Assembly: GCF_964355755.1 (NCBI RefSeq)
Contig: NC_092671.1
Location: forward strand, 5,146,001 to 5,210,000
DNA from: Antedon mediterranea
Taxonomy: Eukaryota > Animalia > Echinodermata
DNA: 64,000 bases
Reading direction: 5' to 3'
Positions 35,441-62,674 of the stretch are shown piece after piece (within the stretch, counting starts at the first letter, position 1; the number at the start of each line of letters is the position of its first letter). The notes below the pieces were generated by a model. The model did not search any database. It had not been told where the DNA came from and saw only the letters and a program-made list of their open reading frames with translations. The translations under genes and the position numbers were made by a program.

Positions 35441-35554
35441 TTAATCTTTGACCAAGCGATAAATGTGATGTTGTGCTCCATGTTCACTAGTGGATACTTC
35501 AAATACGTAAGCTATACACAGTAAGGTTTCCTGAGTCTCAACGTTTGATACGAC
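35441..35554 (-). CDS. TEAD: TEAD last coding exon
   Basis: tgtag|[37 protein letters not shown]. Confidence 0.96.
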
Positions 35555-38500
35555 CTACAAAAAAAATATGTATATATTTTACTAATATGATTGTTTATGA
35601 GTGCTTATTCTTCTGTCCACAGCGACAGTGGCTGAGGTGTGATAGTGAACAGAGGTAAACTCCAAATGATGCACTGTTTACTTTGAAGGGCACACAAGGC
35701 ATATGTGTACACTGAACCTCCCAAGAAGTCCTTATCTGAGAAGACTTCTTCAACCACCAGAACAAATTTACTATACTACTAGGGGAGTTTCTGGTTTTCA
35801 GGAGTCTGGTATTGGGATAGTTGACTGTCTGTATCTAGATAGATATTGCATTGACCAGTACACCTAGATAAATCTTTTAAGCTCTGTCTTTGCAAGACTA
35901 ATTGGTGACTAAGAGCAACAGAATGCACCTGAATAGACCAACTGGTCTGGGCGACAACAAACAACAGAATACACTTGGTGCTACAAGGCAATACCAACTC
36001 ACAGCATATGTAACCAATAGGCTCTAATTAGTGACAACATTGACTCTGTGCGCTTGGCAATACCCATGAGAGACAGACACTAATGTCATCAACCAACACC
36101 TGATCAACCGTTCGTTTCCGCTTGTCTGCAAGTTCCCTACCAGCATTCCCAAGAGAGGCGCACATACGCCCTGCATTCTGCCGGCTGGGGTCATTTTTGA
36201 AAAAAAATCACAATGGAAGCCTGTATTTTTTAGGTTGAAGTATTCATTCTATTTTGTCCCATCACGTAAATTGAACTTAACAGCCATTGGTCTGTGTCAG
36301 AGTGATTGTTTAGAATCAACGGCGACATTTACTACATGTATATGGGTACTTATAATAGAAGTATGTACACAACTTCGAACAGGAGTTTCTAGAATGCATT
36401 GGCATAGAATCAAGACATTTTAAACTAAAAATCACAATCTAGCTAACCAAAGCCTATTGGGATAGGCTGATGAATTTCTGATTCCATATACAATCAACTG
36501 TATGTATAGCAGAATACATGTGTAGTAGTACTGTATCAGTTAGTGTGACTGTGTTTCCATCATCTTCACTTAGTAACAGTCTATTCTGACCGATTAGAGC
36601 TAATAGTGATTTTAGAGATTTCTTTTTAAACAAACAGGATTTTGTACTGTATAACATTTAGAATTTTTGTTATTATGCTGAAGCTAATCCAAAAAAAACC
36701 TGTTATATTTTATAGCATATAGCACTGGTCATTCAGAATGTATGGAAGTTACAAATTATTTTTACCATTTAATAATAAACTACTATTTAATAAATTGTCT
36801 AAAAAATCTGAATAAAAGGAAATGGAATAATGTGTTATTAGTGTGAAAATGCTTTGAGGTTTTTTTCTCTGTCTATCATCGATTCCAATTCAATAGTAAA
36901 TTAAGTATTTCCTCTCATAGCAAGATATTCTACGCTTGAATGCATCGGGGACAATTTGTACTGTAAACTTGTTATCACTACCAGACGTGTGTACATACAA
37001 ACGATGAGACAAATCTTGATAACTCTTGTTCCATTATTATTAGAGTAGAACACCTTCTTTTGGAAACCCCTGTCAAGGGAAATTCTCTTCCCATTATGCA
37101 AATTATTCTTCTTGGGACTTGAGTTTTGTCTCCAATAATGGTTTGCCACACATACAGGCTGCTTATGATTCGTGGACCTTGTGTACTAACTCTCATTTTG
37201 TTAGGAGGATTTGAAGTCACGACGAAGTGTTCGATGGCCCCCATTAAACTGCTTTGGAAGCAGTGGAATAACAGCTATGAGCGCTCACTGGTTAAAACCC
37301 AGGGGCACCAGAGAATGAGCAGTCCAATGCAACTACCCATCGTTAGAGCGCCCTTAGGAGTGCTAAACCAGAGGCCTCTGCGCTGTGTGGAAGCCTTTGT
37401 AGATGGTTGTGTCTGCCCACCACAAGTACATCTTTGTTACTCCTCATTTAAATATCGGGAAAAGTGAAAGTAGTATAGAAACTATAAATTTGTTTTAATC
37501 TAAAAAAACAAATACTCACCTGTAAAATAGTGAAATTCTCTAAGACACTGTTCATCATATATTTTTCTGGCAAGTGTTTTAATTTGTGGATGAAATTTAT
37601 CATATATTCACACATCGGGGACCGGTGTATTCTAAACACAAAACGGTTGTTTTCAAACCTTGCATATTCAGTCTGCAATTTCAATGACAAAAAAATATTA
37701 TTTAGTTTTTTAGTTTATATATAGAGACAATTCACAAAAAAAAAAAAAATGTTACAACTTTGTACAATGCTGTCAAATGATAACAGTTATTGAGTTAGTC
37801 TTTCCTTATTTCTAAGTCTTTGACCTGGTAACAAAATATATTCAATTCAATTATTTAAGTGACTCCAATTAGAATCTCCAGCCCCACCGAGCCAGTAAAT
37901 TAAACTGCTTCTATTCAGGCAGAAATAATAAAGGAATATCTACCGCACTATTCAACTAATTTAACAATAAAATTTTAGGTTGTTTAATAATCAACATACT
38001 ACACACTGTATGACCGTCTAAAATTCAAAGCTAATTCTAAACTAGCCATCACTTTTATTATATTTGACTGCTCGGGTAATTCATACATCTGATTGAATTA
38101 AACGAATTACTGGGGGTTACAGGACGACAGATTTCACTAAAGGCCTGCTCGATCCGGTCTGTCAACGAGTATTTACTTGTTCCTCGACATAAAACAGACC
38201 CTATACTTTTTAAATTTTATTTCCCTTATACATGTTAGTATTAATAGATTGAACAACGTTACGATGTTGTATGTTTAACGTCATTGTATTCAAGGTATAT
38301 TCATTCGACATATTCTAGAGGTAAAACGTGTGGTAGAGAGGGTATGTGATGGTGTTAAATAAAGATAGAGTCGGACACATGGGACAGTTCATATGTTGTA
38401 TTTGTTCTATTTATATCCTGTGTTGAGGGATAAGTTAATGCCCATACAAATTATCTTGTCTTCTATTCCAACCAACAACTGTCCTTTCATATCTTTGACT

Positions 38501-41500
38501 AGATAATTCTAAATTGACTAAATAAATTCATGATATCGTCACATTTTATCTAATGTGGTGGGTGCTACAGGTTTTTTTTATGGTGCTACAGGGTTTTTTA
38601 TGGTGTTAAAAGGTAAAAGTCAAATTAGAATATAAAATATTACTTAAGACAGAAACAATCAATTTAAAATCTGCAAAAGTAAAGATTTAAGAACATTTAG
38701 ATTAATGATATTGATTTAGTTTTTATTTCATACGCACGCATCAGGATGGTTCAACTATTTTATTATTTATCATGCTTATAAGCCAAGTCTCATTTGAGAC
38801 TTAGGGAGTGTAGTTTAAAGTGTTATGAGTTACAACCCTGACACTTGGTCAGGATTGAACCCTGGATCTTAGGATTTGAAGGCCACAAGCTCCACTACTT
38901 TTTGAAAACAATTTATTTCTAGGAATTGCAACACTGTAACCATTACATCTAAGCTTGAATATAGCGTAACACAATAGGAGGATATAACCAATAGTTTAAT
39001 AAACAAATATGTGTATAATCTATTCAGACTATAAAGCCCAACATTTCCACAATTTTACATTTCAAAATGAGCAAACAAGATTACACCATTTGAGCGCACC
39101 AGATGACAATTACAATGTTGATCGACGATTAAGCATTGTAAATGGTTTCACTTTTGACTAAAAACTATAGCCATTTAAACACACTTACCTCAACTTTCTC
39201 TACAACTTGTTTTCCAAATGAGCACACCTTAGTAGAACATTGTATAGTCATGTTTTCAAGGCTCTCATATCTAAAACGAAGACATAAAAATTAAATGAAA
39301 AATAAAGCATTATCTTTGGTTATAAAAAACACCAGACTAGACATGAATAAGACCAAACATGAACATGATTTGTTATCGATACCAGGACATTTTCTAAAAA
39401 GCCAGCCATATCACATCATCATTCACTTTATGGGTTGAACATATTTATGTTTAATGCAACTTGTGATGTGGGTCAATAACAGACAGATTCTAGCTTGAGT
39501 TTAATTTCATTTTTACCTAAAACCTATCCTTAAAATTAATTATCTTTTCATCTATTTATTGCGTTTGTAATTCTAAAATATCAGTTGATAAATCTTGTGT
39601 TTAAATTCTGATTCTTGCATTCAAATTCTGATTCTTGTGTTCAAAATTCTGATTCTTGCGTTCAAATTCTGACTGACATTTAAATTCTGACAGTCGCTTT
39701 CTAATTCTGACTGTTGTGTTAAAATCTGAATCTTGTGTTATCATTTTAACTCTTGTGTTCAAATAATTCATATTATGTAAGTTATGATTTAAATTTTGTA
39801 AGAATATTTTCAAAACATTGCTTTTATTATACTCACTGGCTTGTAACTCCATAAAATGCGTTGGCATCTTCTGTCATATTTGAATTAAGATCCGCCTAAT
39901 TAAGACAAAAATTAATTAAGGACGACAATAAACAAAATAACATAATTCAATTGAATATTTATTATATATCTAAATTAAGTTAATAAATTTGTTTTATAGT
40001 AGCAATTAAATAAGCAATACACATAAATAAAATGAGAACAGAAAGATTTTCACAAATATATAGTCTGCAAAGTTATATTTGTTATATAATTTTGCATTAT
40101 AAATGTATTAAAACACGAATCACCAATAATACTGTACACTCCAGAGAGATGGTATGTTAAACAATTTTTTTCGATTTTCTAAAATCATGAAAAAAGAACA
40201 TTAACTATCTAATAATTATATTGTCTTATTGCAAACTGATCTATCTCACAATTTAAATTCTATTTATTGTCATTTAACATGTTTTAATCAAAATAAATCC
40301 TTCATTGAGATTTTTAAGTAGTAACATTGTATTCACTTATGCTAATAGTAAATCCAACCAATCACGATCAACTTGTCAAAAGTAATCCTAAACCCTTGTT
40401 GTCAATGATACTAATTTTCATCGACATTCAATAGGGGGCTAGGCCTACCGCTTCACACATATTTTGACTACACATCTAGTCACCACCTGTGAATTCCAAT
40501 CTCTAGCCTAGACACGATGGCCAGGTGTTTTGATTGGTTAGGTTTAACTACTTCCTGTGTCGATGCGATACAATTCAGTTCATACGGGAAGTGACAACAT
40601 TGGAAATTTAATTAACGAGAACATGACCGTTGAAGGACATAACGCACGGTCAAATTTTGATTTGTTTATTATCGTCATAGATACAGAGCTAAACTCGCTA
40701 CAAAATATTTTGGTCATAATCTTTTATGTAATATAATTCTTTAAAATGCATTTATTAATTTATTTATTGCTTACATAAAACTAAAATTTAATACTAATTC
40801 CAATAAAATCACATCACCCAAACATTCAGAAAATGCAGAACATTTTTTTAATGAAATACTTATTTTGAACTTACCCAAAATTTGACTAAATAAAAGCCCT
40901 CTTGTGGGCCTTTATCATACAGTTCCTTTAACCCTCCTTTTTTCTCGGGAAATTTATCGTATATTTGACGGATATCAACAGACTAAAAACGGAGCAGAAA
41001 ATATGGAAGTTATCAATATTGCATTTGTCAGACATGTTAATGTTAAATACCTCCGGGCCAAAACCGAAAAAATTTCAACCATGACTACAACAGTCACAGA
41101 AAGGTGAGGGGAAATAGCAGAGGGCTAAACAAAGCGTAAAAATATCATTCATTTTATTGACAGTTTAAACAAATCAATATCGTATGTTTGTGTTCGTTCA
41201 TATGGTGGCTATTATAATTACGGACCAGAATTGTTTGCTTCCCGCCAACGTCAAATTAGATTCCAGTATTCACGAGTCACATGTTATTAAATGACATAGC
41301 AGAATCTTTACTGATGAAGGCAGGAAGTTGGACATTTTACCCCATTGTCTTTTAGTTAAAAAAGGCAGACAAAAACGAAATGAGAAGGGAAAAAATTTAG
41401 CTGACTATGCTGACACCTGTTTTATACCAACCCATATTATATCATCAGCTCACCTGGTAATGAATTACCAGGTGTGCAACTCTAAACCACCTGGATATGC

Positions 41501-44500
41501 GTACAAGGTTTGCAACTATTGAAATTATATAAAATGGGAACTAGGCGTTTAGTAGCACTAGTTATGGTCTCTTATTTAATATTTGGAATCATTTTATCTG
41601 TAACTAGGTAGCTCAAATTTGATTGGTCATAATAACTTATAGTATAGATCTGGTCATTTAATTATGATTTTTGTAGAATTTTAGATGTTTGGTCTTAAAT
41701 TAGAATCACTTAATAAATTAGTAATTGGAGGTAGACCTTATTACAATTTTGTTTGTTTTAATTATCTTATTTAAAAAATGTTCAACAAAATGTTGTTGAA
41801 AGTAAATGTAAAAGAATTGATCTCACGCAAACAAATTTTTGGAAGATACGTATTATTGTTGAGACATATAGTGCCCGGCCAGCAATTAATGCCATATGAC
41901 ATACATAAATGGAAATGTTGCGACATATTTACCAGATTTTTGACATGTTTAAAATAGGTCATAGAAAGTGTAACTCTATCAAAAATAATTTAGTGTTGAG
42001 AACATAAAGAGGAAATTGGTAAAATTCAGAATCTTTTAATCATAGATGAGATTATCGCTGATGTCGTTATCTTTGACACCATGCCATGCAATAAAAAAAA
42101 AACGGATATGTTGTAGATGCTGGGATAAATATAAATTCATAATTGGGATATACAGGTCCAGATAAAGAAATTCCGCATAGGGAGGGCCTGGTATTAAAAT
42201 GGAAATAAGCATAAATTAAATAAAGCTACAATCCTTTCTCTGTATCTGCACTCGATAACAAAAATGTGATAAGATGGGATTAATACTTGTACCAAATGGG
42301 CTTATATACCAGAATGAACATAAATGATGGGCTTACAAATGAAGAGTGGATACCAAAATGGACATAAAATAAGCAATTTTTATTAAATACATAAAAAATA
42401 AAAGCAGGTTGACTTACTTCTAGCATAGGGTCGGAATAGCTGACATTTGAGCCAAGGTGTACAAAAAGGTGTTTTGCATACTATAAACAAAAATAAAAGG
42501 GAAAATGTAAAAGTAGTATATATAGCAATTTTTTAAAACAAAACAAATTGTGTAACAGATCATCAATTTAACTACTATGTAATATTATTGGTATAATATA
42601 TATATATATATAGATTTTATCCAATTAGAGGGTGGGATTATACTTGAGCATGGGATTATAACTGATCATATAGTGTTGTTACATTTTGTAGTGAAGATAA
42701 AGATAATAAAATTGATGACGCTGATGATAATGGCAACAAAAAGAATGAGGATGATGTTGGTGAAGATGATGATGATAATGGCAACAAAAAGAATGAGGAT
42801 GACGTTGGTGAAGATGATGATGATAATGTCAACAAAAAGAATGAGGATGGCATTGGTAAGGATGATGATGATAATGGCAACAAAAAGAATGAGGATGACA
42901 TTGATGAGGATGATGATGATAATGTCAACAAAAAGAATGAGGATGGCATTGGTGAGGATGATAATGGCAACAAAAAGAATGAGGATGACATTGATGAGGA
43001 TGATGATGATAATGTCAACAAAAAGAATGAGGATGGCATTGGTGAGGATGATGATGATAATGGCAACAAAAAGAATGAGGATGACAATGCAGTGAGGATG
43101 ATGATGATAATGTCAACAAAAAGAATGAGGATGGCATTGGTGAGGATGATGATGATAATGGTAACAAAAAGAATGAGGATCACATTGGTGAAGATGATGA
43201 TAATGGTAACAAAAAGAATGAGGATGACATTGGTGAAGATGCAGATGATGATAATGGTAACAAAAAGAATGAGGATCACAGTGGTGAAGATAAAGATGAT
43301 GAATATGATGGTAACACAGATAATGATGATTATAAAATTGATGAAGATATGGATGGCATGTTAAGCTATACACATGAAACATAAAGAAATGGATTACAGT
43401 ACAACCCTCTATTGGAACACCATAATTCATGGACATACAGGGATATATGTTACTGTGTGATAAAGAACAAACACCATGAGACCCAACAAGGTGTCCCCTT
43501 AATAGGGGCGTAGCAAAGGAGTACTTGTATGTAAAAACCAACTTACATTATCAGGATCTCGTTGGTAGTCCAAGAAAGCTTGGAACTCTACAAGTCTTAA
43601 CTTCCTGGTACCTATGGAACGTCCTTCCCACGCAGGAGGAGCGTTATTTGTCTGTGGTGGAGCTGGGTAATCTGTGGTGTGGGGGTAAGGCTGTGATAAC
43701 TGGAAAGGCTTTTGACTAAAAAATCAATATGTATAAAAATGTATAATTAGATGTAAATATATAGTTTTTCAATACTGGACATCATAGGGCTGGTCTAATA
43801 TGTTTGGTTTCCCTGGGTTAGCTTAATATGTCTGGTTTCGCCAGGCTGGCCTACTATGTCTTTTTTCTCGGGCTGGCCTACTATTTCTGTTTTCTCGGGC
43901 TGGCCTACTATTTCTGTTTTCTTTGGGCTGGCCTACTATGTCTGGTTTTCCCCGGGCTGGCCTAGTATGTATGTTATCCCAGGGATGGCATACTATGTCT
44001 GGATTCCCTGGGCTGGCCTAATATGTCTGTTTTCTCAAGCTGGCCTACTATGTATGGTTTTCTTGGTCTGGTCTGGTTTCCAAATTGAAAATCAAAATCT
44101 CCATAATTTTGAAAATCTTATTTGGAATATTTGCAGAATACTTACTCCTGCGACGGTCCTGCCTGTGGCAATGCAGGGTTCCAAAGCTGTGGGAAACAAT
44201 ATAATAAACAACCTTTAAAATAAGACATATCCAAAAATAAACAAAAATGTTGCATCATATTATTGATACACTCTGTGCCAAGTTTTGAATTTTAACAAAA
44301 AATGCCAGACAGGTTTGATTATTGCCACAGCTGTATACAACTATTAGAAAATTGTTCAGTTGATGTTGATATATTTAATAATAATAATAATAATACGAAA
44401 TTAAAGGTTTTTGTTTTGTGGGATTATGTTTCTATACGTATTTGATCTAAAAAAATAAGTGGGTAATATTGTGAAACAAATTATTTGGCTATTCTGGTAT

Positions 44501-47500
44501 TATTATGGATAAAATATATTTAAATCTTTTTTTACAAGATATAGGCGAATGACCATTTAATATTTTCATATAATTGTCAATTTGGGAAACATCTGGGATC
44601 TTTAGGAGCATAAAGAATAAACTAAATTGATACACAATAATAATTTATTGAACTGAATATACCATATGGCTTTTTAATTATTATAGTAAAATATAATTTA
44701 GTATTATTAGGTTAACTACTAATCGAGGGTATAGTTTGGAAAATTGTCAAAAAGGGTAAAAATCTGGTACTTTTACGACTTGATTGATAGGAACTTCTAA
44801 CCGAGTGAGAGTGCTTTTAGCTGGAGAATATTCTTTTATTGTTTATTTCAGTAAAAATAATAATATCCTGGATTTATAAAGCACCTAATCATGTGAAAAG
44901 CTCTGTACATATTATTACCCCATTTTTGGGTCAAACATATACCAGCTACCAATTTGTATACCTGGGTGTAGAGAGGCAAACGTAAGTAAAGTGTCTTTTC
45001 TAAAGATATAAGGAATGTGATGGATTCGACCCCACGTTCAGTAGTCCAACACACTGCACCACACGGCCTCAATAAAACCACTATTAAGGAGAAAACTTTA
45101 GGACCCAAAAGTGTCCCCCTGGCCCTTGTTTATTTGGTTGGACAGTTCCTCAATAGGGGTTTCTCCTGGAAAGTGGCGTCTCCTGAAAAGTGGCCTCCCA
45201 AAGTTCTACTGTAAACGAGTATTCGGTATTATGCAGCTGATACAGATAACCTGTTTTACCTTTTACCAAATTTGTTATTATCGGAATGAACTTGGTATCC
45301 AAAGATTTCAGTAAAAACTAAATATATAAAATGTAAATAGTAGAAGTTTGCAACAATTGTCCAAACAAGTGTTTTTCGTAAAATTATTGTTTTGATTTAA
45401 AAAGTGATTTTTATTATAAAAACAAAGCTAGGACTAAAATAAAAAAAAAATGTTGAACCAATGGAATGAATTAGGTCAAATGGATGATGAATGATGAAGA
45501 AGTTATTCACCAAAAACCAAAAAAATGTTTTGAACCACTATGACGAAACACCTGATTCCGCAAGTAATAACATGAATATGTATATTTCTACTCGGAAACA
45601 AAATTATTTATTTAAATTTAGGAAAATATGATAGTACAACATGTATACTTTCTGTGTCCAATAGTTGCGAAAATTTGTTTCGGAAAGATAGACGATCAAG
45701 ACGGTAATTAAACAGAGCGTGATGGATGCGGTAACATGGTCAGAATACACGTTCTACTGTACTTGTCATGGTCTCTTAAATTACCGTTTTTTTTTGTCTA
45801 CTTTTCCAAAACAAAAGCTTAATATTCTTACCGGTGGACCAGTTGTATATGGTGATCGTAAAGGTGATGGTCCAATAACACCAGGTAAACCATGTGGTAC
45901 TGCTTTATTATGGATGGCGGTTGCGGAGACAATTTGAGCTGAAGACATGGCGGCCATACTTTGAAGTGCTTTATCTTTGGCAGCTTGATCCTACAGAAAA
46001 GAAAACACTGTATTACAATCTAAGAATATTATTCCTAACCTTTACAACTGGGCTATCAATCTTTTTACTTGAGTCAAGACATTTTAGAAGTGCTTAAGTG
46101 AAAATACTTAGGTAAAATTGTTTATTTAAAACAAACTTAAGATGATTTTGTTGCCAAGAATGTTAGGTAAATCTAAGTCTATAAATATAATTTCTGTAAA
46201 CAACCTACATGTCAAGCTACAATATTTATTATAGAATTATCAACCAATCAAATTTATTCCTACATTCACAGTGGTTTAATGTGAAAGAGGTATTAACCAT
46301 TATCCATCAAAACTGTACAAATAGGAAAACTTAATAAGAACAGAATGACAAATACTTTATTGTATTCAAGGTTCTCATAATAGGTAGATATAAAATCCAC
46401 ACCAGGAAAAGAAAAATGCCCTTCTTTATACAGTATCCAATATAAAACTATAGAACAAATGAATAAGCAGAAAATAGCATTATGCTGGCCATGTTACTAG
46501 GCAATTGTAATCAAGATTCTAAGTTGATATAAATCAGTCAGATATCCAGACTGGATCTATCATTTTAAAAAAGAAAACGCCTTTTTTGTACTTTCCAATT
46601 TGATATAAAACAACAACTCTAGATATGTAAACCATTTCTTTCAATTTCTGCTTCAAGTGGTAGGCAAAAACTAAAGATACAGGTTACCATATGACCCCAA
46701 GAACAAAATTAAATTGCTCATTTCATATCTTCTTTTCCTTATCTTTTTTTTGCAAGCATATTATATGCTTGATCTCTTAGCTCTGTCTACACTATCAAAC
46801 TTTATGTGACAAAAAAATGTGATGTGCCTATATATGGACATGATGATGTCATATCAATATCATATTTGGTTTGATAGTGTAGACGGAGTTTTAGAAAGAA
46901 TTTACTAATAACATTAAATTATATTAGCCCTATTTGAACTACACTATGTAGAATGAACAACATAGTATTAAATGATGTATAAAGAACTTTTATTTTTTAA
47001 CCAGACCCCTACGGGAACCACGGTTGTTATGTTATAAGAATAATACAGGTTTGAGTTAATAATAGTAACTTGTGTTCTCATTTGTATCTTTTTTATTGCG
47101 TCAACCCTAAACTAGTCTATTAAATAAATAAATGAATAATCAAGTTAATGACCACAGTTGAAAAATTTTCATGAAAATTAAACAAATAAATCACTGAAAT
47201 AAGAAAATTTGATTAGAAATTTACATAAATCAATTATTATGTGTATAAAATAATGTAAAATACGATATATTAGAATTTATAACTGATAATTAGTAATAAA
47301 TATGATTGAAGATTAGGCTTGATATAAGTTGTTCTACACTCTACATTCTCTATTGGAGTTAAATAGTCAATCTCACGGTTTAGCTTGTTTGTTCAAACGA
47401 TAAAAAACAGAGGGGTTAAACATCCAATAATTCATTAAAAAAAACCAATCCGAGTTATATCGGAGATAAATTAAAGTTATATATCAGCTTATGGAGAAGG

Positions 47501-50500
47501 ACATAGACCATCCCTTGCGCTGGTTGTTACTCTGATCAGATTATCTCTGTTCTATGCACGCTTGACTCAATAGCACGTGTGAACACAACTATTGTAAGTA
47601 AAATTTTACTGTAAATGTAACACACAAAAAATAAATTGATAAAAAAAATTGCAATAAAAAAAATTGGCATTGGCTGAACATTTTAAGAAATAATTCTTAG
47701 ATCATGAATATTGGATCAGTTGCTAAACATTATATTGTTAAAATCTTTAAAATTTCTGTTTATTTCTTTCAAACAAAAATGATCTTACATAAATATTGAC
47801 ATGAAATAATGTAATGTTATGTAATGAAATCTGATTACTAACAAAAATATTGTGAATACTAAGACAATTGAGTGCAAATTAGTTACATGCAGGCTCTCTA
47901 TACAATATAATGTTATATGTAATTATTGTATCATATGAATTTAATTAGAAACAATCTACATAAATACATATAATTAATAATAAAAAAAATAATATCTAAT
48001 ATCTATCTTGCATATATTATATATTGGGAATCAAATCAAATTGAAATTGAATTTGTTTTCTCTAATTTAAATAGTTTCCATATACAGTAGATGAAAAAAA
48101 TATTATAAATTTACACAATTTTAAATCAATCAATCAATCAATAATTTTTATTTCTCAAATAAAAACAAAAAAAAAGTTAACATTTTCTAAAAATAATAGA
48201 TAATAAATGAGAAAAAGGTTAATTAATAGTGTGATAATTTAAAAAGTACAATTTAATATTTTTTCATTACAAAAATAAGAACAATTAGACGTTTGTTACT
48301 TTTTAAAGTAAATCATGAATAATGGAAAGCTGTTAATTTTAGGATTAACAATATAATGCTTCACATAGGACTTAAATTATTTGTGGTTTTAAATGCGGAT
48401 TCAAAGGTTTTAGTCAGGTCAAAGGAGAACAGACACAAAAGAACAATTTATACTTTCAGTTAAATTTGTATAACATGACCTTCCGGGAGAAATTAGAAAA
48501 GTTAAAAGATTTGTTGGAAAATTTTTTAAAATTTTAACGCAACCTTTGGTTTTTTGATAAATGAATGTAAACATGATGTTACCTTTATCGTTCGCTTGAC
48601 GTCTCTGGACTTGCGCTTCGCAAGTACTTGCATATGACTCGAAACCTGATCAAAAAGCAGAAAATCAAAAACACATTCTAAGACATGCAGGTAGGTTGAA
48701 TGTAATAAAATGCAAGCCGTGCTAATAGCCTACCTTACACATTGCCTGTAGCTCCCTGGCCTTGCGCCTGGCTAACACTTGTATATGGCTAGAAACCTAG
48801 GAGAGATAGGCAAAAAGGCAAGAAGAAGCCGTGAGAGAAAAACCAGTGCCACAAATACAAAGTGCCTTCAACACGAAATCAAAGCAAAGTGGTTACACTG
48901 AAGAAAATATGCGAAAGTTAAGTAGCCGCTGTTTACGTATACAAACGTAAGCTCCGAGTTTGTGCGTACGTCTAATACAAACAAAAGTTAATAGATTTTG
49001 AAGAACGAGATTTTAGAGATACGCAAACTTCACACGCAAGTGCAAACAGCAGAAAGTTGGCAATTCACCAAAAGTGCCTCTTGCGACAATGTGGATCATA
49101 GTGGGTGTAAAGCGATCTTATATACGCATCGGCTGTGACGCTTGCACGCAAAAACATAGAAGAATAAACAGATGGCATAACGATGCAAGGATCAGAATAT
49201 TGCGTGGATTACAAAGACTTTAATACCAAATAAAATCAAAAGTAATGACACCATAAATAAAACAATAAATAATAATAAAACATAAAACGATACAACACTG
49301 ATAGCTGTTGAGTGAAAGGCTAGCTCCAGGCACACATTTGTAAACTGTATCAAATGGAGATTCAAGAGTTTTTGCTAACTCGTTTTGATACACGATTCTT
49401 ATAGAAAACAAATAATAAAATTCACTGTTCTTCCACAAAATGTTGAAAGTATTGTAACTATTAACTTATAAATCAAGAATAATATAATGTTCACATCGCC
49501 TTGTACTGGGCTGTACACTGAGCGCATACAGTACAATACAAAAAGTTGATGTTGATTCCTCGTTGTTGCTAGGCGATGCGAAGTGGTACGAACGTGTCCT
49601 CTAATTAGGGGCTTTTACTGTATATTGACATGTTTCTAGTGTGATAGCGTATCCAACAACGACACTCCCACTTTTAAATGAACACTTTACAATGTTTTCT
49701 CAGAGCTAGCCATAGACCACTCAATACAAAGAATCCCAAAGAACTTTAGAAAAAAGAAGACTAATAAAACATAGTAAAAGATGATCATAAAATTTAATAT
49801 CAAAGTGAAAGATAAATCTTTCAAGAAAATATAAGTTAAATCATATTTTATAAGTATGTTTTATGTCATCATACATAATATTTTATATTATATACACCAC
49901 ATGTTTCAATTAAGAATGCCCTCAACCCTATCTATTTTTTTATATATCATAATAAAAATAATGGGGTACACAACAATTGTTAATAAATTGGTACATTGTG
50001 TAAGGGTTTCTTTGTTTTAAAATTTCACTTCAATTTAAGTAAAATTTATTTCCATTTTTAAATATGAGCAACAACATTACAATTCAAGTGATTTCATTGG
50101 ATAAAAGTTTATGACCAACTCTTTGGAAATTAAAGAGCGTCTCATATATACAATTTACAGAAAGGACTTTAAAATCAATACAAAACCTTTAAAATTGATG
50201 TTTAGCAATTACTTCTTTTCTGTAATACATCAAAGCTTAAATTCCAATAAAATATGCATCAATTTTAAGACTTCAAATAATGGCACGTAATCAACGGAAA
50301 TCTCGTTTCCATCACAGCCTAGGAACATTTCTAATTGTGGCGCTGAAATAAGAGAACCTTCGTTCCGTCGCGTTTTATGAAAGCAAATTTGAAACGAGAC
50401 CTGTACTGCAATCAATCATACGCATGAATAGGCTCAATTGAATCGTTTTTAATTAATGTTACTTGTCAAAATTATAGTAAAATATGCATTAAAGTTTTTA

Positions 50501-53500
50501 ATAAATGCCATTTTCATAGTTCTGGAGCCAATTTAATGCAACTAAGATTAAAAACACAAATAAAAATTGATTTTTAAAGTGTGATCTTAAACATTTTAAA
50601 GCTTTTGACACATTACAACAAATATAATTGTTATTCATATCATAGTTTACTAATACTGTATGAAATTAGTTATTATACAATAAAAGTTAACAAAGTTTTA
50701 AATTTTAATAAAACAATTGAATTCTAAAATTCTGAGAAACATGAAAAAGTGAAAATACACTTGTTTTTGTTGGTACTTTTAAAGGAAAAAAATTTATTAT
50801 TCCAGACACTTCCTTATAGAATAGCAAAACATTTTTTTTCTAGACAGCTGTTGGTAAAAACCGTTCAGCTCCATCACGACTCCATCACGCTTCCGGATTT
50901 TAAGGGGAAGAAAAATGGTACAGTTTTGTTTTTTTCTAAATATCCAAATAGCCTAAGTAAATGAATGTCATTCATTCTGTAGATATGTTTATCAAACACT
51001 ATTTACTATTTATAGCTGGCTAAAATATAGTATTGTCAACTTCAATATTTGTTGGATGAAAAAATAATAAAAACGATTAAATTCTTTTTGTTAAAGTGTT
51101 TAAAGATAGTGATTGTTTTTTGTGTAAAGCATTCTGTAATAAAATAAATTCTGTTAAAATTTCAGTTTAAATAATTTATTTGTTGTTTTTATAGAATAAT
51201 TATATAAATTTTAATATCCTAAATAATTATGTTGCGAGTACATTATTTTGTTAATAAAAACACTATAATTTAATATGTTGAAATGTGTCTACATATGAAG
51301 AAAACCTGGTTAGTGTATTCGATTCTAGATTTTGGAAGCCTGGTAAAAGGCATTTATAATGATTTGCGTAGAATTTAAATTTATAATTCATTTGAATATT
51401 TTCAATGTCGAAGTTCAAAGATTAAGTTAATTGTTTGTTCATTAAAAATTGCAAAACTATGTTGGAATCTCACTATGACTAAAAAGCTAATTACTGCAGA
51501 TTAATATATCTTGGCGACTTAATAATATTCATTGTAATATTTAAAATGTCAAAGGTCATTTAATAAACATGGATACAATCAACAGCAGGTTCAATTTCCG
51601 ATACAATGACATGAGGCGCGTCGAGAAGAATGTAGATCACAATTGTTATTTAGAGATTATACGACATCCGCAATTTCTTTGAGACCTAGATATTGTGACT
51701 TCAAAATTCCATCTCTTGTTATCTTATTAATTATATTTGATTAATGATACAATGTTTGAGATTGAATCGTTTCATTACTGGCTCAGAAATCTGATAGAGG
51801 CTGTCCAATGGCAGCAGAACATTATACATAGACAATATTGGTCAAAGGATATATCGGTAACAAAGCTGTGTTTTAGAATTTTGTCGTCGGTTTTAAGATT
51901 ACGTTGTACTTTGGCGATATATTCAGGTCAGGGTATTATTCATATAGATTAGAGTACAATTTGAATTTATAATTTACAATAGTGGAAGTGACAATTTCAT
52001 TATACAGTACATACAATATACAGGACTTTAGTATATATTACCCCTTTTGGTGTGAAAGGGGTATATGTTAAGGACAATGTCAACATTTTTATAACGCAGT
52101 TACTATAGTACAACATTTTGTTTACATTATTATGACATTTTTTTTAATTTATTTTTTGGATAAACCATAAACTTCTCCATTAAACAAATATATTATGTAT
52201 TACAACTTTTTAAAATAATTTTAAGATTCATTTTTCAAATAAAGACAAATCCAAATCAAAACCTGATTTTTGTTTCATTTGATTTATATTTTTCTTTCTT
52301 ATACTAAAATCAATTTTTTTTGTGTGTTAAATTTAGATATGTAAAGCGTTAATAACTTTGAAAAAAAAAAAAGCGGTGTTCGATCAAATTTTGAAGTATT
52401 AGCAATTACTAATTAAAAAAGTACATTCATCCCATTAAGGATATTGAAACTTGGCACGGCATACCATATTTCATAATTGATATATTGATGAATTTTGATT
52501 TAAAATTAATGTTTTAACCTCAGAATGGCAGGAATTAATATAGGGTTAAACACCCATTATGAGAGACATTTTTAAAATTGAAACTTGCAGATGACATAAT
52601 ACCATATTTATAACATTTTGGCTAATAAAAATTATCAATATTATTATTACTGTACTATTACATATTAATCAGTATTTATAAATATCTATCAATTATTATC
52701 CTCACCTGTTTTCGTGATCTTGATTTCCCTGTCCGGAGTTTAATATACCTAGCTATAAGTTCATTACGACCTGTAAAGATTAAGACAAAAAAGTATATAC
52801 ATTTTAGAACATCTATTCGTCATTTTATTCAGGATGGAAACGGCAGATTTATTGAACAAAAGTTTACTTTACAAGCAGTTGTATGTTACCATCTTTGAAT
52901 AGGGAGAATACCATATTTATTTGAATTACCACCACACTTTGAATAAATTCTTCTCCTCCCACCCCCACCCATTAAACATAAGACATTATCGCCAAGGCTG
53001 AGGCATTTCTTTATTTCCTCAAAAACATTATATACACAATTTTGTATTATAAGACATTTATATTTGTAGTAGAATTCATTGACTGCCATGATCTACTTAT
53101 CACTTTTTTTATATTAATTGTTTTATATTTATTCATATTTACAGTTTTTATTATGTTACCATTATTACAACCAAAAAAAATAAAGGCTTCCCCAAATAAA
53201 TGCTTCCCTCAAATAAACGTGGTGTTTATTCAAATAAATATGGTATTTTTATTTCTTAAAAAAAGATTGATTTACATATTTGACATATTTTAGTTTAAAG
53301 TTCATATCATAATAACATGTTAAATTAATTAGAAGTGATCAATTTTATTCATATAGTTTTATTACATTGTTGTGAATATCTATTACAAACAATATTAATT
53401 ACTTTTATTACTTAATTCAATGATTAAATGAATATATGAATAAATTATCTTAAGATGACAATAATAAGTAATGTATAACCTAACCTAGATAGAACCTGGC

Positions 53501-56500
53501 AAACATTAAAAAAAATGTACAGTAATTATCATTTTTATTTATTTAATTAAATACTAAAATTGATTTTCTTTCCCCACATATTATATTTTGGATACGCAAT
53601 ACATTCAGTTTACTTCCATAACATACCACAAATATTTTTATAAAATGTTATTTTCAATATTATCACATACAACTGTCGATGTCGCAGTGGTTACCGTAGG
53701 TAGAGTATTTGACTCTCAATCCAGAGGCTTTGGGTTCAAGCTCTGTATGTTTATGTCAATTTTCAGAAAAAAAATTTAATTCAAAAGGAGAAACAACATT
53801 TAACCAGTTAGAAAACATGTTAGATTTTGATGGTGTTTGTACTGTACACTCCTTGCTTAATAATAATTCTTCAACACTCTGAACTTAAGAAATACCATAC
53901 CTTTAGGGTTGACAAAACAAAGTAATCATTCATAAATATAATTTAATCTTATTTTGGTTTGATTACGAGTACTTCTATAACGACCGAATGTGAAATTCTT
54001 TTATACAATAAACCCTTTAGGCCTAACACATCAAGATCGACATAATTATTTGTGTATTGCTTGCGTCGTCACATTTGCGACCTGATTTTAACGTTACATT
54101 ATTGTCCTAGGGTCATAAGAATCGAGACAATTACTTGTTGCACTTGCTTTCATATGTTCTTCTGTTACCCGATTTATGTAAATTTTATCAGTCAAATACT
54201 CGCAAGAAAACTATTATTTATGGTTTAATTATCATTATTGAATGAATAAGTGGAAAGGGGGAAAGGCCAATAAATTGTATTGAATTGCATTTTTTCAATC
54301 CACAAAAAAATATATCAGAAATGAAATTTAAAAGGAAAATTAAATTAATTGCAGAAACAATCATGTCATCATACTGTCAACTTAATTCTGTCAACTTAAT
54401 TCTGTCAACTTAATTCTGTCAAATAAATATATTTATTTATATTTTTTTAGATAGTTTGGTACAGTAGTTTTTGGATCATATAATGATATAGGTCCTGTTT
54501 CTGCTGCATAAAAATAATCGGTGAAAAACGGTGTTATTAAATTAACTCCAAATTTCTTGGGAGCAGAAACAGGACAATTTTGTGGTAAACAGTTAAAAGG
54601 CAGTGCAAAACAACCAGTTACAAACACCCATTCAAAATTGCATTTTGGGTAAATAATTTTTGTCAACAACCACCCACTGATTTAAATGGTTATTCTGGAG
54701 CAAAAATTGAGCAGAAAATGCAGTCAATATAAAAATTACATTTTTAAAATAATCGGTTTATTCGGCGCTATGCAGCAGATAATAACTTGAATCATATTTA
54801 AGTCACATGTTGCTACTATACCAACAATGTGCTCATTTCGTCAAATACTTTAAATATTTCTTTAACAGTATGTGATGAAATTGACACAATATAATTTTAT
54901 TATTGTCGCAAGTAATATAAAAGAATAAAACAGAGTAATGACATAAATATTGTGAATACACAAATGTTTTATTCATTAATAAGTGATATACGACAATATG
55001 AAAAACTATTTCTACAATTTTCTAACAAATATCACCGGAAACTTTCTTTCCTTATAAACACTATTATTTTTCAAAATATCGTTTATATTTCCAGCCATAC
55101 ATCATCACTATTATTAAATACAAACTGTTTGTACAATAGCAATAACCTTCTTCCGTTTTGTGTTATTTTTCTGTGAATAATTATATTTTGATATTTTTCT
55201 ATTCCAAATATGGACTGATAATTCAGAATGTTTAATTTCTAAAATAAATTCTGTTTATTGTTTACCACAAACATTATTTTAACAACTAATTATTATTAGT
55301 ACATTATTATGCATCAATTCTATCATATTCCATTCAATTTGATTTTTTATACAAAATTTCCTTTTTTGTAAAATTTATGTAAAAAAATCATACAATTTTA
55401 AATAAAAAAAAAACCATGGAAAATTTTAGAAAATAAAAACATAACTAAACTTTGTTGGTATTTCATTAAACGTTAACAATATATTTTATTAGGAAAATTG
55501 TTTTTCGAACTATGTAACCCTACCAAAGTGCAAGAGATCATTAAAAAACATGGAGTACTTTGGATGAAGTGAGCACATTAAGATTTAAGATTAAGTATCT
55601 ATTTTAGGTCTACAAAGACGCCCGAAGAAATACAACTGTGAACCGGCCAAGATGAAAACATTATTTATAGCCATCAAACCCAGACATGATCATTGTTATA
55701 CTTCTTATAATGTAGAAAAGCGATTTGTTTAAAGGTCAAAAGTCATTAGAACAGTGCTGTTTGTGAAGTAAAAATCTTATATAAACCTTTAAACTATAGT
55801 TGGGCTTTTCAGGGTTATTCAACTATTGTTGTGGAATCTCCTATCCACAAATTCATCGTTCAATATACACTGCTGTGATACAATAGAATAAAAAAAAACA
55901 ACAATAGAACCAGTGAGCCAAAATTGAGTATTGTTAATATTCTTTTAAAATAAAAACATGTTTTCATTGTAAAGACACTTGAACAAATATACACAGAGCT
56001 AACATCATTATGCACGGCTCTAAAAATGACTCAAATATATACAATAACACTTTTGGTTAGAAAATACAGTAGTATTTAAAAGTTAGAAATTCTAAAAAAA
56101 ATCACATTGTCACAAATTGTTTTGAGGGAAAAGATGGTAAAACAAGGGATTTCCAAGTTAAAAAGATTTATTTTTGGCAGACTTGGTGTAAAGCATGGTC
56201 AAACATTATATGGAGCTAAAACAATTTAAATAAATGATAGAGGCAGCTATATAAAGCACATTTATAGTAAAACAATTTTCTAGTAAACATTTGGTATAAA
56301 AGGCGCATTCCATATGGTATGATAAACTTTTCAAGAAGTAGTCATTTATTCACTCTCTGAAGTATTTCACCAATGTTTCCATGTTTGTATTAAAAGTTAA
56401 GTCCAACTCCACCCATATTTTGGCTACGCCAGATATTTTCAGGTGCTTGACAGTTGATAGATGACTGATAATTAATGTTATTATTAATAGTATTGTATAT

Positions 56501-59500
56501 TAATTCCAAATGGTTTTCACTTCCGAAACCAAAAACACATGACTAATACTGTAGTGTGCCCTCTATGTAAAGACAAAGAGGGTCCAATAACAGTTGATTC
56601 TGAGCCATTAGCGGGGATGCCACAGTGATGCTAGTTAGAGGCTTAGGTTACATGCCCATTGAGGTGATGGGTCATTTACATAGTTAATAACACCATTTAG
56701 TAGTTGACTTCTATACTTGCTTAATTAAGTTACAGGTTTTATTATTATTATTACAAATATGAATATCAACATCACAGATATAAGCATAACATTTCATTTA
56801 TGGGAAAATCTTTGGCAGTGTTTATTTTGATCAAATTTACAATGCTTGTAAAAAGTAAAAATCTACCGAGTAAAAAAATCAAAAAAGATAATTATCATGC
56901 TATTAAAAAAACTTCTGGGGTGAGGTAAAATTGGAGACCGCCAATTGCATGTCAGCTAAAAATTGCTCCAAAAAAATCTGTATACAGAACGGCTTTTGCC
57001 GACAAGATTAGAATCATTTGGATATTATTTTGAAATGGTTTATAAGATTGGTTCTGTTTTTTTTAATGTTTTTTTTTTTTTGGTGGACCTATTTCTGGTA
57101 TACCAAAAATATTCCTTCTAGTTGCCATAAGCATGGTATCTGAATAAACATAATTCTTGATAAAATTGATACAATCTCTTTAGTAGGGATAAAACACTAC
57201 AGCTTACCGATATTCAGGACACAACTATTATAGATCCAAAAGGTATCCTTTAATAAGGATTCTACTGTAGGCCTACTACCAGATAAAGTCATCTTATATT
57301 TATATAATAACTTTAAATTAATCCTGATTTACACCACATTGGTTAGAATTCTGTGTGATTAAATTTGACATTACAATGTCGGATTAATTTAATTCCTTAA
57401 GATTAAAATTTGGAAATTCATTAAAAAAGAAAACATGATGATAATCGTAACAGAGATCACACTAATTAAATACCATTCAGATTAAATTATAAAAGAATGC
57501 ATGCATACATGGAAATACGGCTACATTATATCAGTTATCAATTTGTGAATTACAGAAGTAGAATAACAATAATAAAATTATGTATTTTTTTATGTTTTAA
57601 TTTAATTGTTTTCCCTTTTAAATGAAACTTTAATAACTAATAGCATGATAAACATGAAAATACAGTTGACTCTCCCAAGACAAGAATTTTTATGGTAAAA
57701 ACAAATTCTAAATTTAAACTATATGGCACTTTTTCTGGAGAACCACCAGCAAAAAAAAATCTTGTTAAGCGTTAACCTTAAATAGATAAGATAAATTTCA
57801 GGGAATGTTGTGATTTTATTAATGAAATTAAACTTATTTTTTTTAACAGAGGCAGCTCAAAAATAAGGGGAGAAAGGTGATGCTTAATTAGAAATAAATG
57901 GTTTCACTTCTTTTGTAGGAGATAAAATGATAGATACAATTTTTAAAAACAAAAATGGTCATTGGAAAACTGCTTAATCGAATATTATAATATAAGTTGT
58001 GAGGCAATTTATTGGTCAATCTTTTTCATCCTTTCGCTCATATTTATAGAAAATGTTTTCTCTGCTTTGACCTGACAGGTCCTGGTGTTAGATACAGCTA
58101 ACATTGACCAATCATAATCAGCGTTTACATAAAGCTTTTACATGACTGGTATACTGTTAAGTCACTCAGCAGTCAGTCTCTGTCTGAGTAAACAAATCTG
58201 AACAAACAGTTGCGACTTGATAAATTAGGTTAAACCATGGAGGAAAATGGTTAAACCTATCAGACACAATACTGATTAGGCCTACTATAAGTGTTTTCAA
58301 CCTTTTTTAGGTTTCAGTGAATTTAGAAATGTTTTACTGATGGTGGCACTTCTTTAGTTGTAGCGCTGTGCAGCTTATTTGATCATGTCGGTTACAACGA
58401 TGCCTACTTTTAATGATGGCTGTGTAGTTTTGGTTGTAGCAATTTGGCATCGAAGTGCGAATTGAATAGATGCTTACTTCACTACGATGCTTTTTTTTAC
58501 TGCTTTTTTTTTGCTATACTTGACTAGGACATTTATTTTACTGCAACTTGCTTGACTGCGATGTTTATTGAACACTGTGCTAACAGCATCACTTGTTTGC
58601 GGCACATATTTGTCAATTTTTAACGCAATTAAACAATTTGATATTTGTACAAATCATGAAACAAGTTTATATTAATAGCCATAAAAAATATAATTATTGC
58701 CTTGAACAAAATAACCCTGCGATTGGCGACAATAAAACTTACTGACAACCATAAGGTGGGATTATACTTGATCGAGATCCAAAATAATTATATAGACTAT
58801 CTAAACTCTGGCCTACAATAATAAGCAATCAATATAGCAGTTCCTTGGGCACAATTGCATAGTCAATCAAAAGAGACATCACAGTACATATCACATAAGT
58901 TCACAGAATGAAATCTTATAATTTAATGATGTACTATACTTTTTTCCAATTCTAAAATTATCTAAACACTTAAAGGGTAACTCCGGGTTCAATATTTCTA
59001 GTGCTTATAAAATTTCAACCTTTGCAACAACATTGATCCCACTTGTTTTTCAAAAAGGTGTTAAGAAATAAGCCCCTTTAAAAAAAAAGTGATGCTACCT
59101 GACTTTTTCATGTTATAAGATAAGGAATTCACAAAAAGTTACTGTCATCTATGTAAATTTGAAGAATTTTTCTTTAGGAAAAATCGAAAGAACGATAAAA
59201 TTTACATAAGAAAATATTATTTTATTACAAATAGTTACCCGATTGACGATTGTAAACCATTGAAAATCAGAAAAAATTATATATATTTATAAAATAACAA
59301 ATTTGTAACCAGGAGCAGTCTGTTATAGTTAAAACAAGGAAACAAATTCATTGCAAGCTACCAAAAAAATAATCGCACTTATGATGTAGAATAGTATTTA
59401 TACTTAAATTTGACCCCTAAACCTTTCAATTTTTATTTCCTCAATCACTATAAAAACTGTATAACCACCACTCTCTGTTATCCACACTTTTCAAAAACTT

Positions 59501-62500
59501 TTGTTTGAGTTGACGAAATGGATTTGACAAAAGCCGGTTTAGCTTGTCAAAAGAATAGGCGAAGTTGTTAAAACCAATCATTGTGTTAACACTCAAAAGA
59601 AACAAATGGATCTCCTATCATGCTTGATTGAACACAACTCTATAAGAACTATACAGGAGATTGGTTTTCTAAAAAGCAGGTAACACCCAATATACAGCAC
59701 CATTCACTTTTCTTACCTATGAATTGCACACAACAAGTTTAGCAGCTGGTTCAGCTCTGACGTGATCAATTGAAAATTCCCGCTTTTCACATACATTACC
59801 CGAAGAATACCTCTAAGAAAAACGGTTCGATCGCAAACAGGTGTTGCACAAAAAAAATACACATAAAACAACATTATATATGGGTTGCCACATGGTTGAC
59901 ATTTCGAAAAATTAATATATAAAAATAATTATAGGAGTAATGTAATACTACAGATGCTATAATACATTTTTATTTGTTGGATGACTTAAAAGCAGTTGGA
60001 TTTTTGTTTGACCAACTAACGGTAATTTATATAACAGATTTAACATTCACGATTTTGAAGTATTTGATTTACTGGTCCGATATTTATTTTTTCGCAAAAC
60101 AATTTATAACAGTGTAGAAAAAATATTTCAATATTTATCAATCTTGGCTAGTTGACAAAGTGACTCATACAGTCTACTTTACAAAGAAGAAATAAGTCAC
60201 TGTATACCACATTGAAGAAATTAACTATTTAACAGAAAAATAAAACAGATTTAACAAAAAACATTTTTTAAAAACATTATATTAAGCTTAATATAAGTTT
60301 TGGTTTAATAAACTTACATTTTTTAATATTCAAAATTTAAACTGTTGCCTGTCCAATTAAACACTACAGGATGCAATTTTTGATTATCTAAAATTGATAA
60401 TACTGTAGCACTACAATATTTATTATATCTTGCAGTAATTTAAACATGAAATTTTCAAATTGCATACTTTTTTTGTGATAAAATATTTTAATAAATTCAG
60501 TTCAGGATACATAATCTATTGTTAAAACGATTTTTTAAATATTTTCCAGTTAAGAACATTTTTAATCAGGACTACACAAAAATATCTGATTGAAAAAATA
60601 TGTACTAAATGAAACTGAATTGTAATTGGCTCTCTGCTAGAGCTAAGCCGATCAAAGACACCAGATCGGGTTTAATTGAAATAAGATGTTCGAGTAATTT
60701 TTATTGCTCGTGTTTAAACTTCATTTATGGCAAACTTCCTTTTACATGGATTTCTTGGTATATTTACAAAACTAATTAAGTCCATATTTTTTTATAGATT
60801 TTTTTAAAGATACAAAACAGTAACTGTTCTTTAATGATTCAGAGTGATTCGTTCGTACTCAAAGGGCGTATAAAACCACCCTCCCTGGGGTGAACCATAC
60901 AACCCCCTTGGGAGCGGCCTTTTGTGTTACACCAATATTTATAATTTGTTGTTTTTTGTATTGCCTGTTAAATTGTTTCCAGCTATTTCATATTTTCGTA
61001 TCTGGGTAACCTTGTTCTTAAAACAACACTTATATCCTACTAGGCAGTCAGTAATAAGTAAACTCCAACCGAAAGGTCAGCACTAAGGTGTTACACACTG
61101 CATTTATTGTATACACAACTTTTGTGGTTGAAAAACAGGTTTATCAACATTTGTTCCTTGCTACTACAGTAGAAGTAAACTGACCTCTGACCTTGGCCAC
61201 CTACACAAAACCAGAGATAAAACTATATATTTCCCTTTTACAATCAACTTTGAGAGAAACACAAGTTTAAATCCGAGGCCATCCTCATCACACTACCGAA
61301 AATATAAAAGATCCAAAAACTGTGAAATGAACTCGGGTTGAACCCATTTATGCCATAGTGATCTGATAGATCATTTTTTATTTTAGAGCTGTATTGTAAT
61401 CAACCAACTATAAATATCGCATAACTTTTGCATGAATCAATGTTTTTTTTAATCCAATATCACCATTATTTAGCAAATCACAATGGTTGTTGCTTTACGT
61501 GCCTATTTCAATCAGAGTTAACACAGACGATGAATTAAGCTTCTATCAAGCCTGGTGTATGTGTACCACACCACTAAACCTAATTAAACTTCCCTGGTGT
61601 GAGTGATAGTATAAAATGGGTAAAACACCCAATTGTTTTGCGCAATAAAATAATAGTATTGAAATGCTTACAAATGACAACATGACTGATCTCTAAAGTA
61701 ATTGACATGATCAATCCGTGAAAAGGAGTTAATATACTGTAGATAATGGTTTAATCCGAAGACCATCCCATTATCACCTCTAATTAACTCTGATCTATAT
61801 TACACAAAGTTCATTCATTAGCACGTGTTTAAAATTAAGTAAAGAAACTTTACCAAAGGTAAATTTGACCATTGTTCGCACTTGAATAATTTCACAGTTT
61901 TACAGGTTTTACCAAATCTTAACCATGATGGTGATAAACAATATCAGAGTAAACAACCAATGTAAATGTGAGTTCTAACTCTCTTTCTCATATATCTCTC
62001 TCTGTTAACATTGATATAATATCAGACCAAGTATGTTTGAATGCAAAACAAGTTAAACCGCAAAGTTGACTTTAACTCCAATCGAAAAAAAGAGTGTGTA
62101 AACAAAGCAAATTATTTTTGGTGATGAAATAATAGAAATTTTTGAAAAATTTGTTAGGATAGAAATGTACAATGTATGATGTATTGAACATTTTTTGTAG
62201 TTTTTAAATTACTTTGTACATAAGTTGCGATGAGAAAATTTAATCATTAGTTGATGTGTGCATTATACAAGTACAACTACAATACCAGACACCTTTGGGC
62301 TGGCCAAATATGTCTGGTTTTCCAGAAAGTCTGTTACTGTATTTAGAATGTTTTAATGGTAAAGAGGAAATTGGGATCTTTCAGAAAGTCTGGTTTTGGG
62401 AGAGTTTTCTGGTTTTCAGAGAGTCCGGAATTGGGAGAGTTGAACTCTGGGAATTCAGATAAAACTTGCGTAAAAAGTGAAAGATATCGTACCATACATC

Positions 62501-62670: not shown

Positions 62671-62674
62671 CTTG

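What the first reader, a model, noticed from the sequence alone, without database searches (positions are those of the whole stretch)
48583..48796. TEAD DNA-recognition helix encoded by two intact tandem exons: candidate mutually exclusive splicing switch
Seen: two 63-nt phase 0-0 exons, each with a pyrimidine-rich AG acceptor and a GT donor, 88 nt apart. They encode [21 protein letters not shown] (A) and [21 protein letters not shown] (B). Third codon positions are strongly diverged while the N-terminal residues are kept, which points to an old duplication with both copies under purifying selection. Established: this exon encodes helix 3 (base recognition) and the basic tail of the TEA domain. 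Inference: one gene makes two TEAD proteins with different DNA-binding ends. From memory, vertebrate TEAD1 also has alternative versions of this exon (SRDFHSKLK-type and REIQ-type), so B and A may be their homologues and the switch may predate vertebrates; this needs checking.
Basis: partly seen in the sequence, partly recalled or inferred. Interest (0 to 1): 0.85.

Follow-up and report, generated by a model that had tools for sequence, protein, structure and literature searches.

The report
Ancient twin helix exons, crinoid TEAD
A feather-star gene for the growth-control factor TEAD carries two versions of the exon that ends its DNA-binding helix; gene models of sea stars, urchins, sea cucumbers and acorn worms show the same pair, used almost always one at a time, which likely tunes how the protein is regulated and may share an origin with a pair already catalogued in vertebrates.

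Summary
Confirmed. Two intact 63-nt exons (A 48734-48796, B 48583-48645, minus strand, 88 nt apart) lie in a TEAD gene that matches Antedon mediterranea RefSeq isoforms X2 (A) and X1 (B) letter for letter. An RNA contig shows B spliced to the next two exons; no A junction was seen. Both exon types occur in 10 of 10 echinoderm and hemichordate genera examined (49 models: 26 A, 22 B, 1 A+B), so the pair predates their split. Vertebrates have an equivalent pair (TEAD1, TEAD3, lamprey, hagfish); the human TEAD3 event is catalogued and dated 'Vertebrata', and this scan found it before in shark and lizard DNA. Whether the two pairs are one deuterostome event or convergent is unresolved: spacing matches (88 vs about 90 nt), but the divergent copy lies downstream here and upstream in vertebrates, and amphioxus and tunicates were not retrieved. 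Exon positions 1-4 and 6-9 never vary; differences fall in the basic nuclear-import cluster and tail, so the switch likely tunes regulation, not the motif read. Ten literature searches found no report of the invertebrate pair.

The parts
48734..48796 (-). Exon A, 63 nt, phase 0-0, TEA helix 3 plus basic tail (ancestral-like copy, ends in the ambulacrarian Cys-Lys)
   Evidence: (used in RefSeq XP_071941949)
48583..48645 (-). Exon B, 63 nt, phase 0-0, divergent copy (Lys at position 10, Ser at 13)
   Evidence: XP_071941948; spliced to 45990 in an RNA contig
48646..48733 (-). 88-nt GT-AG intron between A and B; branch-point-like sites at +28, +37, +55, +69
48684..48689 (-). UGCAUG (RBFOX-type element, motif named in PMC9410899) inside the A-B intron; function untested
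   Evidence: 20 matches in 128 kb of both strands; about 0.01-0.02 expected in 83 positions, post hoc
52706..52770 (-). Upstream constitutive exon (helix 2 to start of helix 3, first half of the bipartite NLS)
45832..45990 (-). Downstream constitutive exon, 159 nt
44146..44186 (-). Next exon, 41 nt; length fits the end of the RNA contig
62493..62695 (-). First coding exon (start codon 62670; TEA helix 1)
35441..62670 (-). Whole TEAD/scalloped coding span, 417 aa per isoform, 12 coding exons each
   Evidence: both RefSeq proteins map exactly apart from one codon split by an intron

Best explanation
The crinoid TEAD gene holds two tandem copies of the helix-3 exon, of which gene models use one per transcript, and the swap likely changes the protein's regulation (nuclear import, phosphorylation, backbone affinity) rather than the DNA motif it reads. 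Shown: both exons are intact; B is spliced into RNA; both types are kept in crinoids, asteroids, echinoids, holothurians and three enteropneust genera. Inferred: the duplication predates the echinoderm-hemichordate split; choice is made by splicing factors and is slightly leaky, because A+B stays in frame and no folding or clear steric block was found; B adds a Ser/Thr beside the basic cluster that would be a kinase site. Whether it is the same event as the vertebrate TEAD1/TEAD3 pair is about even (0.5).
For: RefSeq X1/X2 differ only in these 21 residues. RNA contig of 266 nt = 3 + 63 (B) + 159 + 41, its loose end equals window 45960-45989, and it stops at 48648, the branch expected for 52706>48645 (3 shared letters) and not for A>B (2). 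49 named ambulacrarian models: 26 A, 22 B, 1 A+B; both types in 10 of 10 genera. Unnamed continuous ORFs on short contigs carry B alone (P0041, P0149) or A alone (P0156); Saccoglossus NP_001161650 carries A. In a 43-row exon tree the 7 A and the 7 B rows each form one group (63/81 and 71/74, unstarred); A has Cys20 in 7 of 7, B has Lys10 in 7 of 7. Positions 1-4, 6-9 and 21 are the same in all 41 grouped rows. The Scalloped NLS cluster R157, R158, K159, R161 (PMC3121794 passages) falls on exon positions 10, 11, 12, 14, where A and B differ; 3 of 7 B types lose Lys12 to Ser/Thr. Ser/Thr at 12 or 13: B 6 of 7, A 1 of 7; vertebrate downstream 6 of 7, upstream 0 of 7. PKA and PKC inhibit TEAD DNA binding (PMC6628201 passage). 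Fold z 0.97.
Against: No A junction seen in RNA here; A use in Antedon rests on the RefSeq model and on relatives. One RNA run only, as contigs, so no tissue pattern or ratio. Asteroid A also has Ser13 and Ptychodera B has no Ser/Thr, so the kinase toggle is not universal. Net charge is equal in A and B in 6 of 7 genera compared. The base-contact residues (TEAD4 S100, Q103) and the PKA site (TEAD1 S102) are recalled; the primary papers were not held. Exon order is known only for the two crinoids. No binding or localisation data exist for either form.
Confidence: 0.7

Rival explanations
1. One duplication in the deuterostome ancestor gave both the ambulacrarian A/B pair and the vertebrate TEAD1/TEAD3 pair (origin question, compatible with the best explanation).
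For: Same exon, two copies, sister lineages. Spacing 88 nt here; 90 nt by in-frame read-through in a viper and two teleost TEAD1 models, 105 in a catfish; 87-90 nt deduced from mouse coordinates. Ser13 in the downstream copy in both. Present in lamprey and hagfish. No second exon type in 11 protostome and cnidarian sets (77 records; the two odd rows are a Rhopilema form with a shortened tail and a one-off unnamed millipede-like record).
Against: Polarity is reversed: the copy closest to outgroups is upstream here (A 17.1/21 identity to outgroups, B 14.0) and downstream in vertebrates (17.3 vs 15.3). Order-matched copies share no diagnostic residue beyond Ser13, which 4 of 13 outgroups also have. 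Human TEAD3 spacing is 189 nt. Amphioxus and tunicates not retrieved.
Confidence: 0.5
2. The helix-3 exon was duplicated independently in Ambulacraria and in vertebrates; it is a hotspot for recurrent duplication.
For: Reversed polarity and different diagnostic residues (B Lys10; vertebrate upstream Lys11, Val/Met13). An unnamed genomic read-through (P0166) holds three tandem copies of a longer exon that covers the same helix, so a different unit was duplicated elsewhere; a lophotrochozoan-like transcript L005 has a similar divergent tail. The catalogue dates the human event to Vertebrata.
Against: Needs two gains in sister clades with nearly equal spacing. The grouping vertebrate-up + vertebrate-down has the lowest AU p (0.093), though not rejected. 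P0166 has no name or taxon.
Confidence: 0.45
3. The swap changes DNA sequence specificity, giving two TEADs with different target sets.
For: The exon encodes residues 82-102, inside predicted helix 79-124, and helix 3 determines specificity (PMC7547805, PMC5876656 passages). Crinoid and asteroid B have Met for Ile at position 5.
Against: Positions 1-4 and 6-9 are invariant; solved TEAD1 (downstream-type) and TEAD4 domains differ in the same tail and the family shares one consensus (PMC9410899 passage).
Confidence: 0.2
4. A and B are cassette exons often included together, extending helix 3, rather than mutually exclusive.
For: A+B is in frame; Anneissia X1 has both; 7 of 15 listed tetrapod TEAD1 models have both; a mouse study cloned the two-exon form as 'full length'.
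Against: 1 of 49 ambulacrarian models; the RNA contig's end fits upstream-exon>B, not A>B.
Confidence: 0.1
5. One exon is a decaying relic or an assembly artefact.
For: No A junction in the one RNA run.
Against: Both peptides identical in Anneissia, both kept in 10 genera, B spliced, A and part of B on one contig of a second sample.
Confidence: 0.02

Closest known systems
Human TEAD3 tandem exon duplication-derived substitution, event 210 (Martinez Gomez 2021, PMC8373072 supplement rows)
   Same: Two 63-nt homologous exons for the same 21 residues of TEA helix 3, swapped between transcripts.
   Different: Dated Vertebrata there; spacing 189 nt; divergent copy upstream (TEAD3 strand recalled; order also seen in tandem models). 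Here a single-copy invertebrate TEAD, divergent copy downstream.
Vertebrate TEAD1 63-nt exon pair (RefSeq models; ESRP-silenced exon HsaEX0064366 / MmuEX0046859 in PMC5703972 supplements)
   Same: Same exon, about 90-nt spacing, alternative use.
   Different: Tandem inclusion is common in vertebrate models; the published exon cluster has human, mouse and zebrafish only, no sea urchin; which of the two exons the id denotes was not determined here; TEAD1 is not in the 2021 catalogue.
A. mediterranea RefSeq TEF-1-like isoforms X1 and X2 (XP_071941948, XP_071941949)
   Same: Exactly this pair, as automatic annotation.
   Different: No description, dating or functional reading.
TCF3 E12/E47 and MEF2C alpha exons (rows seen in PMC8373072 supplement; functions recalled)
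   Same: Duplicated exons swapped in or next to a transcription factor's DNA-binding region.
   Different: Unrelated families; here the likely base-reading residues are unchanged.

Membership tests
TEAD/Scalloped (TEA + YAP-binding domain) | TEA domain PF01285 and YBD PF17725 in one protein | tested here: met
Tandem exon duplication-derived substitution | Adjacent homologous exons of equal length and phase | tested here: met
   63/63 nt, phase 0-0, 43/63 nt identical
Tandem exon duplication-derived substitution | Each exon appears alone in transcripts | tested here: met
   B in an RNA contig; A in RefSeq X2 and relatives' records; no A junction seen directly in this species
Tandem exon duplication-derived substitution | Both copies conserved across species | tested here: met
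   10 of 10 genera
Strictly mutually exclusive exons | Never both, never neither | tested here: inconclusive
   48 of 49 models single, 1 tandem; no read counts
Strictly mutually exclusive exons | A built-in exclusion device (frameshift/NMD, U2-U12 clash, steric branch point, competing RNA pairs) | tested here: inconclusive
   NMD and U12 excluded by sequence; fold z 0.97; no convincing inverted repeat among the 25 longest of 286; branch point not mapped
Orthologue of the vertebrate TEAD1/TEAD3 exon pair | Order-matched copies group together | tested here: inconclusive
   six AU tests, p 0.09-0.32, 21 columns
Orthologue of the vertebrate TEAD1/TEAD3 exon pair | Pair present in amphioxus or tunicates | not testable with these tools
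   no named record among the listed hits; no animal genomes on hand
ESRP- or RBFOX-regulated exon | Inclusion shifts on loss of the factor | not testable with these tools
   only a motif; the sea-urchin Esrp list holds a 12-nt TEAD donor shift, not a 63-nt exon

The most novel reading that the evidence does not exclude
Probability: 0.4. Interest if true: 0.7.

Novelty: new member of a known kind. Interest (0 to 1): 0.5.

Why it matters
The vertebrate pair is catalogued but, in what I could read, not functionally compared; a 2026 mouse preprint even treats the two-exon form as full length without noting the duplication (section read). A pair kept in every echinoderm class and hemichordate genus examined shows that both forms have been under selection since before those phyla split (Cambrian or earlier, recalled). 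Either outcome is useful: homology redates the event, convergence marks this helix as a repeated target of duplication. Sea urchin and sea star embryos allow exon-specific knockdown without the four-paralogue redundancy of mammals.

Tried and rejected
No whole genome held. Run search listed no RNA holder on record. First read lay over 17 kb was swamped by repeats and showed no exon joints, and I first took X1 for DNA; the narrow lay corrected this. Absence of an A junction there is no evidence: contigs drop minor paths. Metagenome scan: 80 loci kept of 192, mostly transcripts or compact genes of other animals; none of the 80 held two helix-3 exons. Amphioxus and tunicate TEADs were not among the best 120 of three homologue searches; the 150 unnamed representatives gave tandem copies only of vertebrate type plus P0166. 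RNA folding and inverted repeats gave nothing above background. The exon tree cannot separate origins. The single-sequence AlphaFold model is usable only for the TEA domain (mean pLDDT 47). ESM Atlas only confirmed the family. Papers: PMC5867882, PMC4417111, PMC9117765, PMC13247214 passages held nothing on the pair; PMC9741552 text and its one held supplement have no TEAD; PMC5740500 supplements showed TEAD4 rows for a different exon (2 of 2 and 2 of 6 rows seen). Three primary papers were not held.

Full report
Observation. They share 43 of 63 bases and 12 of 21 residues; codon positions 1, 2, 3 are 15, 17 and 11 of 21 identical. There is no third copy in the window.

The gene. Motif scans found a TEAD/scalloped gene from 62670 to 35441. 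Its first coding exon is 100% identical to a RefSeq protein of the feather star Antedon mediterranea. RefSeq holds two 417-aa isoforms; both map exactly to the window and differ only in this exon: X2 uses A, X1 uses B. The pair is thus already in automatic annotation.

RNA evidence. Laid on 48200-49200, run X1 gave a 266-nt contig (depth 16.7) over 48582-48648 whose loose end equals window 45960-45989. Its length is exactly 3 + 63 + 159 + 41, i.e. exon B and the next two exons. It stops at 48648, where the intron and the upstream exon 52706 part after three shared letters; an A>B joint would share two. So B>45990 is seen and 52706>B is inferred. Exon A lay inside an unspliced contig (depth 4.6); contigs drop minor paths, so this says nothing against A.

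Range in Ambulacraria. Among 49 named isoform models from Antedon, Anneissia, Patiria, Asterias, Acanthaster, Apostichopus, Diadema, Saccoglossus, Glandiceps and Ptychodera, 26 carry A alone, 22 B alone and 1 (Anneissia X1) both; every genus has both types. No ophiuroid was retrieved. A has Cys20 in 7 of 7 representative genera and B has Lys10 in 7 of 7; each forms one group in the exon tree with modest support. The duplication therefore predates the echinoderm-hemichordate split (inference). Eleven protostome and cnidarian sets (77 records) showed no second exon type; these are protein models, not genome scans.

Vertebrates. TEAD1 of eel, teleosts, sharks, frog, reptiles and mammals, two lamprey TEADs, hagfish and unnamed TEAD3-like records carry an upstream KK[VM]RE-type and a downstream RK[SA]R[ED]-type exon, alone or together. 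The human TEAD3 event is catalogued as event 210 and dated Vertebrata (PMC8373072, supplement rows). A 63-nt TEAD1 exon is ESRP-silenced in human and mouse; its cluster has no sea-urchin member (PMC5703972, passages and supplement rows). Against a general switch, PMC9410899 (passages) did not confirm exon 5 exclusion in tumour data. Earlier notes of this scan found the TEAD3 pair in shark and lizard DNA; they are unchecked and gave the wording 'tunes import or affinity', which I then tested on sequence only.

One origin or two. For one: same exon, sister clades, spacing 88 nt against 90 nt in three TEAD1 read-through models (105 in a fourth) and 87-90 nt deduced from mouse coordinates (bioRxiv 10.64898/2026.04.17.719138, section 17 part 1 read), and Ser13 mostly in the downstream copy. 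For two: the outgroup-like copy is upstream here and downstream in vertebrates; diagnostic residues differ; the Asp15 shared by crinoid B and mammalian TEAD1 is absent from shark, teleost and cyclostome copies; and an unnamed record shows a longer exon over the same helix in three tandem copies (P0166). Six AU tests on 21 columns reject nothing (p 0.09-0.32); 43 rows were chosen, one per exon type and lineage, and Anneissia, Asterias and Acanthaster were left out as identical to rows kept. Amphioxus and tunicates, which would decide it, were not retrieved. I put the odds near even.

What the swap does. The exon covers residues 82-102 of predicted helix 79-124 and matches solved TEA domains. 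Positions 1-4, 6-9 and 21 are invariant in all grouped rows; these include the base-contacting Ser and Gln of TEAD4 (recalled). Variation sits at 10-20, which holds the C-terminal basic cluster of the Scalloped bipartite NLS (PMC3121794, passages) and the position of the TEAD1 PKA site (residue number recalled; inhibition by PKA/PKC in PMC6628201, passage). B carries Ser/Thr at 12 or 13 in 6 of 7 genera, A in 1 of 7. The likely effect is regulatory, not a new motif. This is inference; nothing was assayed, and asteroid A and Ptychodera B break the pattern.

How exclusion works. A+B and skip-both keep the frame, both introns are GT-AG, folding is at background and no convincing pairing was found. 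The most usual branch-point position is +69, beyond the roughly 50-nt steric limit (recalled), though candidates lie at +28 to +55. A UGCAUG sits mid-intron, placed to favour A and repress B by the usual RBFOX rule (recalled). Factor-driven, slightly leaky choice is the best guess.

Novelty. Ten full-text searches (seen as listings, with passages from 14 papers) found no description of the echinoderm-hemichordate pair; subscription journals are not covered. The kind of event and its vertebrate instance are known. Verdict: real, ancient, a new member of a known kind; interest 0.5, up to 0.7 if amphioxus shows the same pair.

Noticed in passing
P0166 (unnamed NCBI/ENA record) and L005:485-1759: A genomic read-through holds three tandem copies of a 43-residue exon (end of helix 2 plus helix 3) with two divergent tails and one ordinary tail; a lophotrochozoan-like transcript uses a similar divergent tail. 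Probably a separate duplication over the same helix.
   Followed up: partly
P0297, P0299, P0310, P0368 (vertebrate TEAD1 models): The intron between the two TEAD1 exons reads through in frame (30-35 codons) and looks conserved between a viper and teleosts, hinting at conserved splicing elements.
   Followed up: partly
Asteroid models P0018, P0019, P0035, P0044: A further optional 21-residue exon follows A or B in sea stars; no match in the Antedon window. Vertebrates have a 4-residue microexon at the same junction.
   Followed up: partly
window 17252-21859 (+): Gypsy-type LTR retrotransposon ORFs (gag-like, protease, integrase, reverse transcriptase by inspection) in three overlapping frames.
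   Followed up: no
window 3840-9322: 83-bp satellite, 66 copies, 99% matches.
   Followed up: no
window 46781-46888: Short inverted-repeat element in the intron after exon B, very high copy by read depth; MITE-like.
   Followed up: no
window 42722-43300: 48-bp tandem array in a TEAD intron with an open frame on the opposite strand; probably non-coding.
   Followed up: no
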